Shown one piece after another: positions 15,298-29,591 of a stretch of DNA of 32,000 nucleotides (position 1 is its first letter; each line of letters begins with the position of its first letter). A program made the position numbers and the translations under genes. The stretch spans positions 1-32,000 of the forward strand of contig NZ_QLIR01000011.1 in the NCBI RefSeq assembly GCF_003428155.1, read 5' to 3'. The stretch comes from Fastidiosibacter lacustris (GTDB lineage Bacteria; Pseudomonadota; Gammaproteobacteria; Francisellales; Francisellaceae). The notes below the pieces were generated by a model. That model was not told the origin of the DNA. It ran no database searches and saw only the letters and a program-made list of their open reading frames with translations.

Positions 15298-17245
<1,948 letters not shown>

Positions 17246-26951: not shown

Positions 26952-27473
26952 TTATCCTTTTTTAGTGTTTTTAAGATGATGTGTAGAGTTATAAAACAAA
27001 AATTGCCAAAAATGTAGCGCAGAAAATATGATAAAGATCATAAAGCTATACGCTGCCATGCTTAAACCAAATAGTTGCCAGTCAATTTGCGAGCAATCTG
27101 GTCCACTGGTAAATAAAGCTTTTACAAAGTTCAAAAGCGGTAGGTTTTGGAATAAGCTATCAACACCGGCTTCACAGCTTCCAATATATTTGCTAGGATG
27201 CCATTGCATCCAAACTTGTTTAAGGGCAATAAGTGCACCAAGTAGCGAAATAATTCCAATTATAAAACTATAAATACGCACACCAGTGGTTTGTGGTCGA
27301 TGCAGTAGTGCAATCAATGAAACAACGGTGAGCAGCAAAATTGCAAATTGTTGTAGTAAACACATTGGACAGGGTTTTAAGCCTGTGAATTCAAAGTATA
27401 TAATGCCAAAGATGACTAATAAGCCTGTCATAAAGCTTTTAAAATAAAAATGGGGACTTCTAAATCCGTGCAT
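26952..27473 (-). CDS. dsbB: Disulfide bond formation protein B
   Basis: 173 aa with four TM helices. LKPCPMCLLQQ (CxxC in loop 1) and a second Cys pair (GSCEAG ... SGPDCSQIDWQLFGLSM) are collinear with E. coli DsbB. AAGGAAG lies upstream of the ATG. Its stop is 3 nt from the MFP start. Confidence 0.85.
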   Translation of the reverse strand: MHGFRSPHFYFKSFMTGLLVIFGIIYFEFTGLKPCPMCLLQQFAILLLTVVSLIALLHRPQTTGVRIYSFIIGIISLLGALIALKQVWMQWHPSKYIGSCEAGVDSLFQNLPLLNFVKALFTSGPDCSQIDWQLFGLSMAAYSFMIFIIFSALHFWQFLFYNSTHHLKNTKKG

Positions 27474-27695: not shown

Positions 27696-28406
27696 TTATA
27701 AATGCGTTAAAATATTTTTGCGTAAAAAAGACTCGCATAATGCACGACCTGCTATGACAAAATCATCATTAAACGTAAGTAATAAGTTATCCGCAGTAAT
27801 TTTAAGTGCGGTATCAATATTAAATCCAGACTCAAAAACCTCAACTAGGCGAGCACTTAGTAAATTTACTTCCATAAAACAAACTTTAAAATCATAATTA
27901 CGGTAAACAATTAAAAATGTAGGGTTTAGAGGTGGATTAAGTGGTAAATAATTTCTGCATATTTGATGGACAGGGAATTGGTAAATTAAAACACGAGTAC
28001 TAGTGTTACGAATAAGTGTATCTTTATTATCAATAATTTCTTTAGGTTGGTAATCGGGTGAAATTTCGACCTCAAGTTCAATCCACTCATAGTGCATAAG
28101 TTCGACTAGAAATGGAAAACTGAGTTTAGGTAGTCCATTTAGGTAGTCAACAAATTGTTTAGGGATATGGTAAAAATAAGGGCTCGTTGCACTGTGGTCT
28201 TTAATGAAACCTTTAACTAATTTATGCCATTGAGAAGAAGTTAAAATAGAAAAACTAACAGGAAAGGCGCGCTTAAGTATACTATTGATATTGTTGTATA
28301 TAAGTTCTTGATAAATTTGCATACGATTATCATGAACATTGACAATTGATTTTAAGGTGGATTGATTACGGATATTATGAGCAAAGTCAGACATCGTATC
28401 AAACAT
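27696..28406 (-). CDS. DUF2063-family RiPP partner protein (HvfC/BufC/MbnC-like, putative RRE-containing)
   Basis: 236 aa. N-terminal F..IRN...RMQIYQELIYNNINSILKRAFPV....W..L...F matches my memory of the DUF2063 signature. Its ATG overlaps the stop of the upstream DUF692 gene (TAATG), the canonical DUF692-DUF2063 pairing. Confidence 0.75.
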   Translation of the reverse strand: MFDTMSDFAHNIRNQSTLKSIVNVHDNRMQIYQELIYNNINSILKRAFPVSFSILTSSQWHKLVKGFIKDHSATSPYFYHIPKQFVDYLNGLPKLSFPFLVELMHYEWIELEVEISPDYQPKEIIDNKDTLIRNTSTRVLIYQFPVHQICRNYLPLNPPLNPTFLIVYRNYDFKVCFMEVNLLSARLVEVFESGFNIDTALKITADNLLLTFNDDFVIAGRALCESFLRKNILTHL

Positions 28407-29248
28407 TATTCAAATACCTTTGATTCACATCTGTTATGAATAGACTTAATCGTACTAAGTTCTTGTTGCAACGATAATAAGTTTGGAATATTAAAATCAC
28501 GCTCAAGAAGTGTTGGGAAAAAGCCATGTGTTTGATAAGTGTACTGTAGTAGCTGCCACACAGAGCTATTTACATCTTCACCATGCGTATCGATAATTAA
28601 ACTGTCTGTTTTTTGACAGTGACCAGCAATATGAATATAACAAATTTTATTGGTTGGTAGTTGGTCAATAAACGTATAAGGGTTATAGCCATGATTAATG
28701 CTATTGACATAAACATTGTTGACGTCTAAGAGTAGCTGACATCCAGATTCTTGAATAACGATATTTAAGAAATCAATTTCTTTAATGACTTGAATAGGAG
28801 CAGCATAATATGAGATATTCTCTAATACAAGAGGTTGTTCGATTATATCTTGGACTTGTTTAATTTTCATAACAACGTGTTTGATTGTCTTGTCATGAAA
28901 AGGCAAAGGTAATAAGTCATATAGATAGCCTTGTGCATCGCTACAGAAGCTTAGATGCTCACTATATATCAAAATATTATATTCACGCATAAAGGCTTTA
29001 ATTGACTTAATAAATTTGATATTAAGTGGTGCAATACTACCAATAGAAAGATTAAGCCCATGCAATACAATAGGAAGCTTTTGCAGGTATTGGTTAAGTA
29101 AATGTTTACGCTTACCACCCATTCCAAGCCAGTTTTCAGGCGCAATTTCAATAAAATCAACAATATCGGTTTGTGCTAAAAGTGTGTTAAAAAACTCTTG
29201 CCTTAGTCCCAAGCCAATTGCTTTATGATGGATAGTAAGATTAGTCAT
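28406..29248 (-). CDS. DUF692 / MNIO (multinuclear non-heme iron oxidase) RiPP maturase, MbnB/HvfB/BufB-like
   Basis: 280 aa with a TIM-barrel-type DUF692 signature throughout: GLGLR, FIEIAPEN, PIVLHGLNLSIGS, IYSEHLSF, YLYDLLPLPF, VLENISYY, LLLDVNNVYVNSINHG, IHIAGH, IIDTHGEDV, PTLLERDFNIP. The His/Glu/Asp/Asn positions that ligate iron in MbnB-type enzymes all appear to be present. Confidence 0.85.
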   Translation of the reverse strand: MTNLTIHHKAIGLGLRQEFFNTLLAQTDIVDFIEIAPENWLGMGGKRKHLLNQYLQKLPIVLHGLNLSIGSIAPLNIKFIKSIKAFMREYNILIYSEHLSFCSDAQGYLYDLLPLPFHDKTIKHVVMKIKQVQDIIEQPLVLENISYYAAPIQVIKEIDFLNIVIQESGCQLLLDVNNVYVNSINHGYNPYTFIDQLPTNKICYIHIAGHCQKTDSLIIDTHGEDVNSSVWQLLQYTYQTHGFFPTLLERDFNIPNLLSLQQELSTIKSIHNRCESKVFE

Positions 29249-29280: not shown

Positions 29281-29577
29281 TTACATAGTTGAATCACTGT
29301 CACATGAGCCACTTTCACAATTTGCATCAGAGGTGTTATCAGATGAGTACATGCCACTACATTGACCTTCACCACACTTACCTGCCCCGCATTTTGCATC
29401 TTCAAGTTTAATATTATCGGCATTAGGGTTTTGATCGGCTTGCATACTGTTAGTTTGGGCATTGGCATAACCTGAATTCATGTCATTACTTTGGAAATTG
29501 GTATTGTTTGCAAAAGTGCTACTAGACATACCAAAAGCTAAAGCGGCTGTGATAAGGGCAGATTTTTTGGTGTTCAT
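29281..29577 (-). CDS. Secreted Cys/Gly-rich RiPP precursor peptide (HvfA/oxazolin-like metallophore precursor)
   Basis: 98 aa. Sec-type signal peptide MNTKKSALITAALAFGMSSSTFA|NN, an N/Q/S/D-rich linker, then the core AKCGAGKCGEGQCSGMYSSDNTSDANCESGSCDSDSTM with 5 Cys. A strong SD (AAGGAG) lies 8 nt upstream. It is the first gene of the operon, 32 nt upstream of the MNIO gene. Confidence 0.75.
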   Translation of the reverse strand: MNTKKSALITAALAFGMSSSTFANNTNFQSNDMNSGYANAQTNSMQADQNPNADNIKLEDAKCGAGKCGEGQCSGMYSSDNTSDANCESGSCDSDSTM

Positions 29578-29585
29578 TTATTTAT

Positions 29586-29591
29586 CTCCTT
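29586..29591 (-). promoter_or_regulatory. Shine-Dalgarno site of the precursor peptide gene
   Basis: Plus-strand ctcctt is AAGGAG on the minus strand, 8 nt upstream of ATG 29577. It is among the best SD matches I noticed in the window. Confidence 0.6.

What the first reader, a model, noticed from the sequence alone, without database searches (positions are those of the whole stretch)
29281..29577. Precursor peptide architecture: signal peptide, N/Q-rich spacer, and two different Cys motif classes with an odd Cys count
Seen in the sequence:
- Residues 1-23 form a Sec signal (positive N-region, hydrophobic core, TFA|N cleavage context).
- Residues 24-61 are a low-complexity N/Q/S/D/A spacer without Cys.
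- The C-terminal 36 residues hold all five Cys: C-x4-C-x4-C in a Gly-rich K/E/Q context (KCGAGKCGEGQCSG), then C-x4-C in an acidic Ser-rich context (NCESGSCDSDSTM).

The (A/E)GKCG-type repeat is what I recall for HvfA-type 'low-complexity' precursors. The acidic CESGSC pair is not, so this may be a hybrid or divergent core. Five Cys cannot all be disulfide-paired, which fits enzymatic conversion rather than a structural disulfide knot. The small residue after each Cys (G, G, S, E, D) may determine which sites are substrates.
Basis: partly seen in the sequence, partly recalled or inferred. Interest (0 to 1): 0.7.

Follow-up and report, generated by a model that had tools for sequence, protein, structure and literature searches.

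The report
Divergent copper-peptide (HvfA/oxazolin) precursor gene
This small gene encodes an exported, cysteine-bearing peptide of the known HvfA/oxazolin ("captophorin") family, which neighbouring iron enzymes convert into a copper-binding molecule; it is an unusually short and partly degenerate member, not a new kind of system.

Summary
A 98-codon ORF on the minus strand (29281-29577) encodes a signal peptide, an N/Q-rich Cys-free stretch, and five Cys arranged as C-x4-C-x4-C plus C-x4-C.

It lies 32 nt upstream of an HvfB maturase and an HvfC partner, both above NCBIfam cut-offs. The window is Fastidiosibacter lacustris.

The "two motif classes / hybrid core" reading is not supported.
- In alignments with seven relatives, the acidic pair DANCESGSCD sits column for column on their canonical terminal dyad D(G/M)KCG-x-G-xCG.
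- It is therefore a degenerate copy that differs by three one-nucleotide substitutions.
- Triads and odd Cys counts are common in the family (12 of 50 relatives).

Acidic residues after Cys are rare (E 0 and D 2 of 316 sites). A related enzyme, FonBC, does not process such sites. I therefore predict that C63 and C68, and probably C73, become 5-thiooxazoles, while C87 and C92 are doubtful.

The "spacer" contains a conserved motif, NFQ..DM..GY, found in 29 of 40 relatives.

The peptide scores below both NCBI HvfA models, and its exact sequence is absent from a 15-billion-protein collection. A published table already lists its maturase as oxazolin-associated.

Verdict: a new, divergent member of a known family, of modest interest.

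The parts
29281..29577 (-). Precursor gene (hvfA-like), 98 aa, oxazolin/captophorin-type
   Evidence: ORF and translation. Homologues were found by phmmer. Orthologues lie upstream of HvfB in relatives.
29585..29590 (-). Shine-Dalgarno AGGAGA, 7 nt before the ATG
   Evidence: Read directly from the sequence. The ACCCA-AACAAGGAGA context is also present upstream of the Cysteiniphilum orthologues.
29509..29577 (-). Signal peptide, residues 1-23 (MNTKKSALITAALAFGMSSSTFA), predicted cleavage TFA|N
   Evidence: K4 and K5, a hydrophobic core and small residues at -3/-1. Residues A12-S18, F22 and A23 are invariant in the Cysteiniphilum/Caedibacter orthologues. Cleavage of the HvfA signal peptide has been shown experimentally in E. 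coli (PMC11252979). The cleavage site here is inferred.
29467..29499 (-). Conserved post-signal motif N27-F-Q-S-N-D-M-N-S-G-Y37, pattern F-x(3-5)-[LMI]-x(1-2)-G-[YS]
   Evidence: Present in 29 of 40 relatives from several lineages (one further regex hit, P0021, lies inside its signal peptide). It matches 0.1% of shuffles of the window's spacer. F28, Q29 and G36 are invariant in alignment A3. Its function (recognition by HvfC?) is inferred.
29353..29400 (-). Core triad, residues 60-75: DAKCG-AGKCG-EGQCS-G (C63, C68, C73)
   Evidence: These are canonical 5-mers of the family (-1 is K in 249 of 316 sites; +1 is G in 284 and S in 22). The EGQCS 5-mer occurs naturally in Methylophilaceae precursors (L022). 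Triads are common.
29299..29328 (-). Degenerate terminal dyad, residues 84-93: DANCE-SGSCD (C87, C92)
   Evidence: It aligns with the canonical terminal dyad of 7 relatives and 4 close relatives. +1 = E occurs in 0 of 316 sites and +1 = D in 2 of 316. The codons AAT, GAA and GAC are each one nucleotide away from Lys or Gly codons.
28406..29248 (-). hvfB, MNIO (DUF692) maturase, 280 aa, identical to WP_116964160.1 of Fastidiosibacter lacustris
   Evidence: NF003818 387.5 bits (cut-off 360) and PF05114 at 3.5e-100. PDB 3BWW at 7e-74. The His/Asp/Glu/Asn columns are invariant across 41 homologues. Identity to the F. lacustris protein.
27696..28406 (-). hvfC, DUF2063/RRE partner protein (PME type 1), 236 aa; its start overlaps the hvfB stop by 1 nt
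   Evidence: NF050145 223.5 bits (cut-off 142); PF09836 and PF22106. PDB 3DEE at 1e-14.

Best explanation
The ORF is the precursor peptide of a three-gene hvfABC-type operon in Fastidiosibacter lacustris. It belongs to the oxazolin / Buf_EGKCG / 'captophorin Lys-Cys' family.

Proposed mechanism, inferred from characterised homologues:
1. The peptide is made in the cytoplasm.
2. The HvfB-HvfC complex (multinuclear non-haem iron oxidase plus RRE partner) oxidises Cys in (D/A/E)-x-(K/Q)-C-(G/S) 5-mers by four electrons to 5-thiooxazoles.
3. The Sec system exports the modified peptide, and signal peptidase I cuts after TFA23.
4. The mature ~75-residue acidic peptide binds Cu(I) in the periplasm through pairs of heterocycles and buffers copper stress.

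Site predictions:
- C63 and C68 (KCG-AG-KCG) are canonical substrates and form one Cu(I) site.
- C73 (QCS) is a probable substrate.
- C87 (NCE) and C92 (SCD) form the orthologue of the family's terminal KCG-x-G-xCG dyad. It has degenerated through three single-nucleotide substitutions. These two Cys are likely poor substrates or not substrates, and may stay as thiols or form a disulfide.

Shown here: gene anatomy, family assignment of the enzymes, homology of both Cys blocks to canonical dyads, and rarity of acidic +1 residues. Inferred: translation, export, the PTM, copper binding, and which Cys are modified.
For: Context:
- HvfB and HvfC score above the NCBIfam equivalog cut-offs and lie immediately downstream. 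hvfA-hvfB are 32 nt apart, and hvfB-hvfC overlap by 1 nt.
- The closest solved structures are 3BWW and 3DEE, which PMC12668002 names as captophorin MNIO and PME1.

Homology:
- phmmer hits are EGKCG-type precursors.
- The nearest orthologue family in Cysteiniphilum is named 'HvfA family ... RiPP metallophore' by NCBI and passes NF050137 at 50-52 bits.

Alignment:
- A1 and A3 place both Cys blocks on canonical dyads. C68, C73 and C92 are invariant in all 8 sequences, and C87 is kept in 7 of 8.

Statistics:
- Cys-context counts, x4 spacing (139 of the successive Cys pairs), triads and odd counts.
- Clade-wide acidic, N/Q/S-rich composition.

Literature:
- The maturase WP_116964160.1 is in the Buf_EGKCG/oxazolin column of Table S1 of PMC12452194.
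- HvfA carries six PTMs and binds 1 Cu(I) per pair of PTMs; its signal peptide is cleaved in E. coli.
- The PTM has been reassigned to 5-thiooxazole.
- FonBC accepts only G or A at +1 and rejects charged +1 residues.
Against: - The peptide scores below both curated NCBI HvfA models: NF050188 21.3 bits against 95, and NF050137 12.3 against 19.5.
- Only one fully canonical dyad is present.
- There is no DoxX gene in the window. DoxX is also absent from the closest relatives.
- No sigma-70 promoter-like site was found upstream of the gene.
- No expression, export or mass-spectrometry data exist for this organism.
- FonBC specificity may not transfer to this HvfB, which differs at the second-Arg site (R-Q instead of R-R) and carries unique substitutions.
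Confidence: 0.8

Rival explanations
1. Hybrid core. The peptide combines two distinct substrate motif classes, a Gly/Lys-rich HvfA-type block and an acidic CESGSC block of separate origin, and both have dedicated functions or modifications.
For: The two blocks differ in local composition. E or D after Cys is almost unseen in relatives (0 and 2 of 316).
Against: The acidic pair aligns column for column with the canonical terminal dyad of all 7 relatives, including the flanking D at -3 and G-S before the second Cys. The differences are three single-nucleotide substitutions. The acidic Ser/Asp tails follow canonical dyads in the relatives as well. There is no second modifying enzyme in the locus.
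Confidence: 0.05
2. Adapted specificity. F. lacustris HvfB has co-evolved to accept acidic +1 residues, so all five Cys are converted and the terminal dyad is a functional, tuned metal site.
For: HvfB and HvfC are intact, with all invariant catalytic columns conserved. F. lacustris HvfB carries four substitutions at positions invariant in 14 clade relatives, including the charge reversal E120K. The clade already shows enzyme-substrate co-variation, with R-R changed to R-Q alongside fewer Glu at position 1. C87 and C92 are retained.
Against: FonBC does not process Cys followed by charged residues. Both Gly-to-acidic changes are G-to-A changes in a 36% GC genome, which fits mutational drift.
Confidence: 0.2
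3. Decaying gene. The precursor is a degenerating remnant with little or no function. It is the shortest of the nine clade precursors with six or fewer mature-region Cys except L043 (79 aa), and it has broken motifs.
For: It has 98 aa and 5 Cys, against 118-130 aa and 6-8 Cys in Cysteiniphilum. It scores below the HMM cut-offs. Its exact sequence is absent from a 15-billion-protein collection. A related metagenomic fragment, P0028, also shows lost Cys.
Against: The reading frame, Shine-Dalgarno sequence, signal peptide, conserved NFQ..GY motif and a perfect KCGAGKCG dyad are all intact. HvfB and HvfC are full length with conserved catalytic residues. Other relatives are just as short, for example L043 at 79 aa.
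Confidence: 0.1
4. Member of the separate 'CxxxxC' precursor family defined in PMC12452194. That family includes the accession WP_003025489.1, which looks like a Francisella protein because it is numerically close to the F. tularensis MNIO WP_003025492.1; the organism was not verified.
For: The peptide has a signal peptide and CxxxxC spacing. If WP_003025489.1 is indeed from Francisella, the host is in a related family.
Against: Table S1 lists this maturase in the Buf_EGKCG/oxazolin column, not the CxxxxC column. There is no Lactamase_B_2 or DoxX neighbour. The phmmer hits retrieved (24 of 25) are EGKCG-type.
Confidence: 0.05

Closest known systems
Oxazolin precursor HvfA (NTHI1441) of nontypeable Haemophilus influenzae with HvfB/HvfC (PMC11252979; 10.64898/2026.06.05.730506)
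   Same: Both have a Sec signal peptide followed by a Cys-free or non-core N-region and C-terminal x-G-K-C-G 5-mers in C-x4-C dyads. The gene order is precursor, MNIO, DUF2063/RRE partner. The enzymes score above the HvfB/HvfC equivalog cut-offs.
   Different: This peptide has one canonical dyad plus a third Cys and a degenerate dyad, where HvfA has three AEGKCGEGKCG repeats. The mature peptide is acidic and N/Q/S-rich (net charge -8), where most relatives whose maturase keeps the second Arg (RR/KR) are Lys-rich and net basic. It lacks the N-terminal disulfide Cys pair and has no DoxX gene. It carries an NFQ..DM..GY motif that Pasteurellaceae and Neisseria precursors lack. It scores 21 bits against a cut-off of 95 on NF050188.
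Fontiphorin / gonophorin, 'captophorin' Lys-Cys group (FonABC, NgoABC; PMC12668002)
   Same: MNIO plus PME1 pair and Lys-Cys 5-mer repeats. The Asp-Phe pair (D251-F252 here, likely equivalent to FonB D249-F250) is retained.
   Different: The second Arg (FonB R16, reported to contact Glu1 of the substrate) is Gln here and in every HvfB at 60% identity or more, except one with Pro. The substrate 5-mers have little Glu at position 1 (15% against 61%). Two Cys are followed by E or D, a context FonBC did not process.
Cysteiniphilum / Caedibacter HvfA-family precursors (e.g. P0026, NCBI 'HvfA family oxazolone/thioamide-modified RiPP metallophore')
   Same: They share 48-54% identity, the same signal peptide, the same SNFQSNDMNNGY motif, KCGAGSCG dyads and an acidic Ser/Asp tail. 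Their HvfB is 67-70% identical.
   Different: They have 3-4 clean dyads (6-8 Cys, all followed by Gly except one Ser). The window has 5 Cys in a 3+2 layout with E/D after the last two and a shorter peptide. A DsbB gene follows hvfC only in the window.
Bufferins (BufA1 DUF2282, BufA2) with BufB/BufC (PMC11626156, PMC12452194)
   Same: Sec-signal RiPP precursors modified by closely related MNIO/DUF2063 pairs to 5-thiooxazoles that bind copper in the periplasm.
   Different: There is no DUF2282 or other Pfam hit on the peptide. HvfB scores 278 bits on the BufB model, below its cut-off of 310. The Cys context is the Lys-Cys-Gly repeat type.

Membership tests
HvfA / oxazolin / Buf_EGKCG (captophorin Lys-Cys group) precursors | N-terminal Sec-type signal peptide instead of a classical RiPP leader | tested here: met
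   The n-region has K4 and K5, the hydrophobic core peaks at 2.08 on the Kyte-Doolittle scale, and T is at -3 and A at -1. The region is conserved in orthologues. No dedicated predictor was available, so this rests on sequence rules and homology.
HvfA / oxazolin / Buf_EGKCG (captophorin Lys-Cys group) precursors | Repeated (E/D/A)-G/A-K-C-G 5-mers, typically in adjacent C-x4-C pairs | tested here: met
   DAKCG-AGKCG-EGQCS is a contiguous run of three. A second dyad, DANCE-SGSCD, is degenerate.
HvfA / oxazolin / Buf_EGKCG (captophorin Lys-Cys group) precursors | Score above the NCBIfam equivalog NF050188 (HvfA) cut-off | tested here: not met
   21.3 bits against a cut-off of 95. This equivalog is narrow: the Neisseria (81) and Glaesserella (94.3) precursors also fall below it.
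HvfA / oxazolin / Buf_EGKCG (captophorin Lys-Cys group) precursors | Score above the NCBIfam domain model NF050137 'KCGExKCG_twice' (family-level naming model) | tested here: not met
   12.3 bits against a cut-off of 19.5. Relatives score as follows: Cysteiniphilum 50-52, L047 24.6 and L049 20.5 pass; L043 17.7 and L044 17.6 fail. The model needs two clean dyads and the window has one.
HvfA / oxazolin / Buf_EGKCG (captophorin Lys-Cys group) precursors | Significant sequence similarity to recognised members | tested here: met
   phmmer gives E = 3e-13 to P0001 and 1e-5 to 1e-7 to EGKCG proteins in a library of 1.8 billion sequences. Identity to the NCBI-named HvfA-family proteins is 48-54%.
HvfA / oxazolin / Buf_EGKCG (captophorin Lys-Cys group) precursors | Encoded next to an HvfB-type MNIO and an HvfC-type DUF2063/RRE partner | tested here: met
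   NF003818 387.5 bits (cut-off 360) and NF050145 223.5 bits (cut-off 142). The maturase is listed as Buf_EGKCG/oxazolin-associated in Table S1 of PMC12452194.
HvfA / oxazolin / Buf_EGKCG (captophorin Lys-Cys group) precursors | DoxX gene in the cluster (frequent but not universal) | tested here: not met
   No DoxX was found among the window ORFs scanned. It is also absent from the nearest relatives.
HvfA / oxazolin / Buf_EGKCG (captophorin Lys-Cys group) precursors | Cys converted to 5-thiooxazole (-4 Da, ~305 nm absorbance) and Cu(I) binding | not testable with these tools
   This needs co-expression and mass spectrometry, UV or NMR. It is known only for HvfA, FonA, NgoA and the bufferins.
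'CxxxxC' precursor family (PMC12452194) | Match to the authors' CxxxxC HMM; Lactamase_B_2 gene in 54% of clusters | tested here: inconclusive
   The HMM was not available. There is no Lactamase_B_2 neighbour. The maturase is listed under Buf_EGKCG/oxazolin and not under CxxxxC.
Bufferins (Buf1 DUF2282 / BufB) | DUF2282 domain in the precursor; maturase above the BufB cut-off | tested here: not met
   The peptide has no Pfam hit. NF050167 scores 278 bits against a cut-off of 310.
Methanobactin (MbnA/MbnB) | MbnB equivalog score; leader peptide without a Sec signal | tested here: not met
   TIGR04159 scores 39.5 bits against a cut-off of 325. The precursor has a Sec-type signal peptide.

The most novel reading that the evidence does not exclude
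The terminal NCE/SCD dyad is not junk. Either it remains as an unmodified thiol or disulfide pair that gives this minimal peptide a mixed thiooxazole/thiolate metal site, or F. lacustris HvfB has evolved tolerance for acidic +1 residues. Candidate changes are E120K plus the clade-wide Arg-to-Gln change at the Glu1-contacting site. In either case the pair would be a natural example of enzyme-substrate co-evolution that resets MNIO site selectivity.
Probability: 0.2. Interest if true: 0.45.

Novelty: new member of a known kind. Interest (0 to 1): 0.28.

Why it matters
The practical value is in annotation and enzymology, not in discovery.
- The peptide falls below both curated HvfA models, and its exact sequence is missing from a very large protein collection. 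This shows how short, degenerate RiPP precursors escape annotation even beside well-recognised maturases.
- It is a natural minimal substrate: one clean dyad, one Cys-Ser site and two Cys followed by acidic residues. Together with an HvfB that lacks the second substrate-contacting Arg, it offers a compact test of the site-selectivity rules recently proposed for 5-thiooxazole-forming MNIOs.
- The conserved NFQ..(D/E)(L/M)..GY motif just after the signal peptide is a candidate recognition sequence for the HvfC partner.

Tried and rejected
- A word-index protein search with the single peptide found nothing, probably a limit of the index on low-complexity sequence. The exhaustive phmmer search and the profile search succeeded.
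- Exact-match contig look-ups for the window's HvfB, for P0044 and for Facilibium P0058 found nothing on record.
- The promoter and terminator scan gave counts no higher than shuffled controls and no convincing promoter upstream of the precursor. An alignment of upstream regions with Cysteiniphilum showed conservation only around the ribosome-binding site.
- DNA-level similarity between the two dyads inside the gene is weak (17 of 30 nt). The case for common origin therefore rests on the protein alignments with relatives, not on intragenic repeat evidence.
- Functional linkage of the downstream DsbB was considered and rejected as unsupported. It lies 222 nt away, has a promoter-like site of its own, and is absent downstream of hvfC in all relatives examined. 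Folding of the gap showed no significant structure (z = -1.09).
- Membership of the CxxxxC family was considered but could not be tested directly.
- Structure prediction was not run. The peptide is short and probably disordered, and coordinates cannot be inspected for enzyme-substrate contacts.
Full report
**1. The observation**

The minus strand of 29281-29577 carries a 98-codon ORF. The product is MNTKKSALITAALAFGMSSSTFA|NNTNFQSNDMNSGYANAQTNSMQADQNPNADNIKLEDAKCGAGKCGEGQCSGMYSSDNTSDANCESGSCDSDSTM.

- The N-terminus is positively charged (K4, K5).
- The hydrophobic core has a Kyte-Doolittle 11-residue mean of up to 2.08.
- The cleavage context is T-F-A|N.
- Residues 24-61 contain no Cys and 10 Asn out of 38 residues.
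- Cys are at 63, 68, 73, 87 and 92, spaced x4-x4 and x4.

An AGGAGA Shine-Dalgarno sequence lies 7 nt upstream of the ATG. The same ACCCA-AACAAGGAGA context precedes the orthologous genes in Cysteiniphilum.

**2. Context**

A 280-aa protein starts 32 nt downstream on the same strand. It scores 387.5 bits on NF003818, 'HvfB family MNIO-type RiPP peptide maturase' (cut-off 360), and 3.5e-100 on PF05114.

A 236-aa protein overlaps the hvfB stop by one base. It scores 223.5 bits on NF050145, 'HvfC family RiPP maturation protein' (cut-off 142), and carries DUF2063 plus NGO1945_C domains.

Their nearest solved structures are 3BWW (7e-74) and 3DEE (1e-14). PMC12668002 identifies these as the MNIO and PME1 of captophorin clusters. 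Across 41 HvfB homologues, the columns H63, H98, E143, D175, N178, H206, D220, H222, E249 and D251 are invariant. From my own recollection, this pattern matches the iron ligands and catalytic base of MNIOs.

HvfB is 100% identical to WP_116964160.1 of Fastidiosibacter lacustris, so the window comes from that organism.

After hvfC there is a 222-nt gap, then a DsbB homologue, an RND adaptor and an AcrB-type pump. In Cysteiniphilum, hvfC is followed by a convergent ComP-type pilin gene. None of the other relatives examined has a DsbB there, and a promoter-like site lies in the gap. I therefore treat DsbB as a neighbour and not as part of the operon. The rest of the window is housekeeping genes, with no DoxX and no ECF sigma factor.

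**3. Relatives of the peptide**

A scan of 185,579 species genomes with HvfB returned 42 loci. In 41 of them a Cys-rich ORF of signal-peptide type lies just upstream of the maturase; L014 has none.

An exhaustive phmmer search of the peptide against 1.8 billion representatives gave 25 hits. The best was 3e-13 at 52% identity. The 24 whose sequences I retrieved are signal-peptide proteins with x-G-K-C-G repeats.

A profile search recovered the Cysteiniphilum orthologues, one of which NCBI names 'HvfA family oxazolone/thioamide-modified RiPP metallophore'.

Context look-ups for HvfB proteins at 60-64% identity gave five more precursors, in L043, L044, L045, L047 and L049.

**4. Are there two motif classes?**

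No. In alignments A1 and A3, the acidic pair D84-A-N-C-E-S-G-S-C-D93 lies column for column on the terminal dyad of every relative:
- DMKCGAGSCG in Cysteiniphilum
- DGKCGQGNCG in L047
- EQKCGEGSCG in L043
- DGKCGEGACG in L044
- EGKCGEHTCG in L045

C92 is invariant in all 8 sequences, and C87 is kept in 7 of 8. The window differs by K to N (AAT), G to E (GAA) and G to D (GAC). Each change is one nucleotide away, and both Gly losses are G-to-A changes in a 36% GC genome.

Acidic Ser/Asp-rich tails also follow clean dyads in the relatives (…CGSDDDSGDNDNGDQ, …CGSKDDSSDQS). The whole clade has acidic, N/Q/S-rich mature peptides: net charge -8 here and N+Q+S 24-37% in 8 of the 9 (L045: 12%). Most relatives outside the clade are Lys-rich and net basic. 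The 'acidic Ser-rich context' is therefore a trait of the lineage, and the terminal pair is a degenerate copy of the family dyad.

**5. Triad and odd count**

Among 50 relatives, spacing x4 is by far the commonest (139 Cys pairs). Runs of three or four Cys at x4 spacing are frequent. Twelve relatives have an odd Cys count, and P0008, P0011 and P0002 have the same 3+2 or 2+3 layout. The 5-mer EGQCS occurs verbatim in Methylophilaceae precursors (L022). An odd count therefore says nothing specific. In H. influenzae HvfA, two of the eight Cys form an ordinary disulfide while six are modified.

**6. What is unusual**

In 316 Cys sites of relatives, the residue after Cys is G in 284, S in 22, D in 2 and E in 0. 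Within the closest clade it is G in 44, S in 2 and A in 1 of 47 sites. C87-E and C92-D are therefore outliers.

For FonBC, PMC12668002 reports that position 5 tolerated only Gly or Ala and that substrates with a charged residue after Cys were not processed. A single 5-mer was not modified, but two were.

On that basis my site predictions are:
- C63 and C68 are modified.
- C73 is probably modified. Cys-Ser is a natural context, although many of the Cys-Ser-rich relatives have lost the Phe next to the catalytic Asp, and this enzyme keeps it.
- C87 and C92 are doubtful.

Because the peptide has only one clean dyad, it scores below both NCBI models: NF050188 21.3 against 95, and NF050137 'KCGExKCG_twice' 12.3 against 19.5. 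The Cysteiniphilum proteins pass the latter at 50-52 bits.

The exact 98-aa sequence is not in a 15-billion-protein collection, although the adjacent HvfB is. Even so, Table S1 of PMC12452194 lists WP_116964160.1 among the MNIOs associated with Buf_EGKCG/oxazolin precursors and not among the 'CxxxxC' ones. The locus has therefore already been catalogued in bulk.

**7. Two additional findings**

(a) The 'spacer' begins with a conserved motif. The pattern F-x(3-5)-[LMI]-x(1-2)-G-[YS] is N27-FQSNDMNSG-Y37 here and typically (D/E)NPFxxxxLSSGY elsewhere. It occurs directly after the signal peptide in 29 of 40 relatives; a 30th regex hit, P0021, lies inside its signal peptide. It matches only 0.1% of shuffles of the window's spacer. 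It is absent from the Pasteurellaceae, Neisseria and Acinetobacter precursors. I did not find it described in the passages I read. Recognition by the RRE of HvfC is my inference. In FonA no single residue upstream of the core was essential.

(b) Every HvfB that is 60% or more identical to this one reads G-L-G-L-R-Q (one reads R-P), where other HvfB proteins have R-R or K-R. By position this matches FonB Arg16, which is reported to pair with Glu1 of the 5-mer. Accordingly, Glu at position 1 drops from 61% to 15% in the precursors of this clade. This is a single phylogenetic event, so it is suggestive co-variation and not proof.

F. lacustris HvfB also has four private substitutions at positions that are invariant in the rest of the clade: Y101F, E120K, R128K and Q271H. 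Whether any of them touches the substrate is unknown.

**8. Mechanism**

By homology with HvfABC, FonABC and NgoABC, the proposed sequence is as follows.
1. The cytoplasmic HvfB-HvfC complex carries out a four-electron oxidation of Cys to 5-thiooxazole. The PTM was reassigned from oxazolone/thioamide.
2. The Sec system exports the peptide and the signal peptide is cleaved.
3. The mature peptide binds Cu(I) in the periplasm, about one Cu per pair of heterocycles. This serves copper buffering or detoxification.

All of these steps are inferred for this organism.

**9. Verdict**

The HvfA-type assignment is right, the hybrid-core idea is wrong, and the odd-Cys argument is uninformative. This is a short, partly degenerate new member of a known and already surveyed family. 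Its interest lies mainly in being a natural test case for MNIO site selectivity and an example of a precursor that escapes curated models.

Noticed in passing
window 29467-29499 (-), residues 27-37; also L015-L031, L043-L049, P0005-P0024: A conserved motif lies directly after the signal peptide: (N/D)(P/x)F-x4-(L/M)-x2-G-Y, here NFQSNDMNSGY. It is present in 29 of 40 relatives from several proteobacterial and other lineages, and absent from the Pasteurellaceae, Neisseria and Acinetobacter precursors. It may be the recognition element for HvfC.
   Followed up: partly
window 28406-29248 (-), HvfB residues R16-Q17; L001-L004, P0045-P0061: The second Arg of the conserved G-L-G-L-R-R segment is Gln in every HvfB at 60% identity or more to this one, apart from one with Pro. 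By position it is probably FonB Arg16, which contacts substrate Glu1. The precursors of that clade have Glu at position 1 in 15% of 5-mers, against 61% elsewhere.
   Followed up: partly
window 26952-27473 (-): A DsbB-family gene lies 222 nt downstream of hvfC on the same strand, followed by an RND adaptor and an AcrB-type pump. The adjacency is not found in Cysteiniphilum or the other relatives, and a promoter-like site lies in the gap, so it is probably unlinked.
   Followed up: partly
window 29281-29577 (-): The exact 98-aa product is absent from a 15-billion-protein collection, although the neighbouring HvfB (WP_116964160.1) is present. The precursor may be unannotated or annotated differently in public records.
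   Followed up: yes
window 29656-29667: A G+C-rich palindrome, GGGGGAGACCCC, lies about 80 nt upstream of the precursor start in an otherwise 36% GC region. It was not seen upstream of the Cysteiniphilum orthologues. Its function is unknown.
   Followed up: no
L043 1425-2254; L045 1174-2048; L049 1264-2105; L015-L031: Many relatives have an ECF sigma factor and a zf-HC2 anti-sigma gene directly upstream of the precursor. The window and Cysteiniphilum have none, so regulation must differ.
   Followed up: partly
L049 2102-2422; L029 1988-2248; L032 2242-2508: Some precursors carry a lipobox (VSAC, LAGC) in place of a signal peptidase I site. This suggests lipoprotein-anchored variants of the same metallophore family.
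   Followed up: no
P0028 (578-nt metagenomic contig): A Cysteiniphilum-like precursor fragment has lost several Cys (KRGSGNW, KLSAGSCG). This is either motif decay or sequencing error.
   Followed up: no
window 15352-16932 (+): The enolase ORF is 526 aa. The Enolase_C domain ends near residue 425 and is followed by a low-complexity tail of about 100 residues rich in E, K and Q.
   Followed up: partly
window 28406-29248 (-), HvfB residues 101, 120, 128, 271: F. lacustris HvfB differs from 14 clade relatives at four otherwise invariant positions: Y101F, E120K, R128K and Q271H. E120K is a charge reversal that might relate to the acidic residues after C87 and C92. This was not tested.
   Followed up: no
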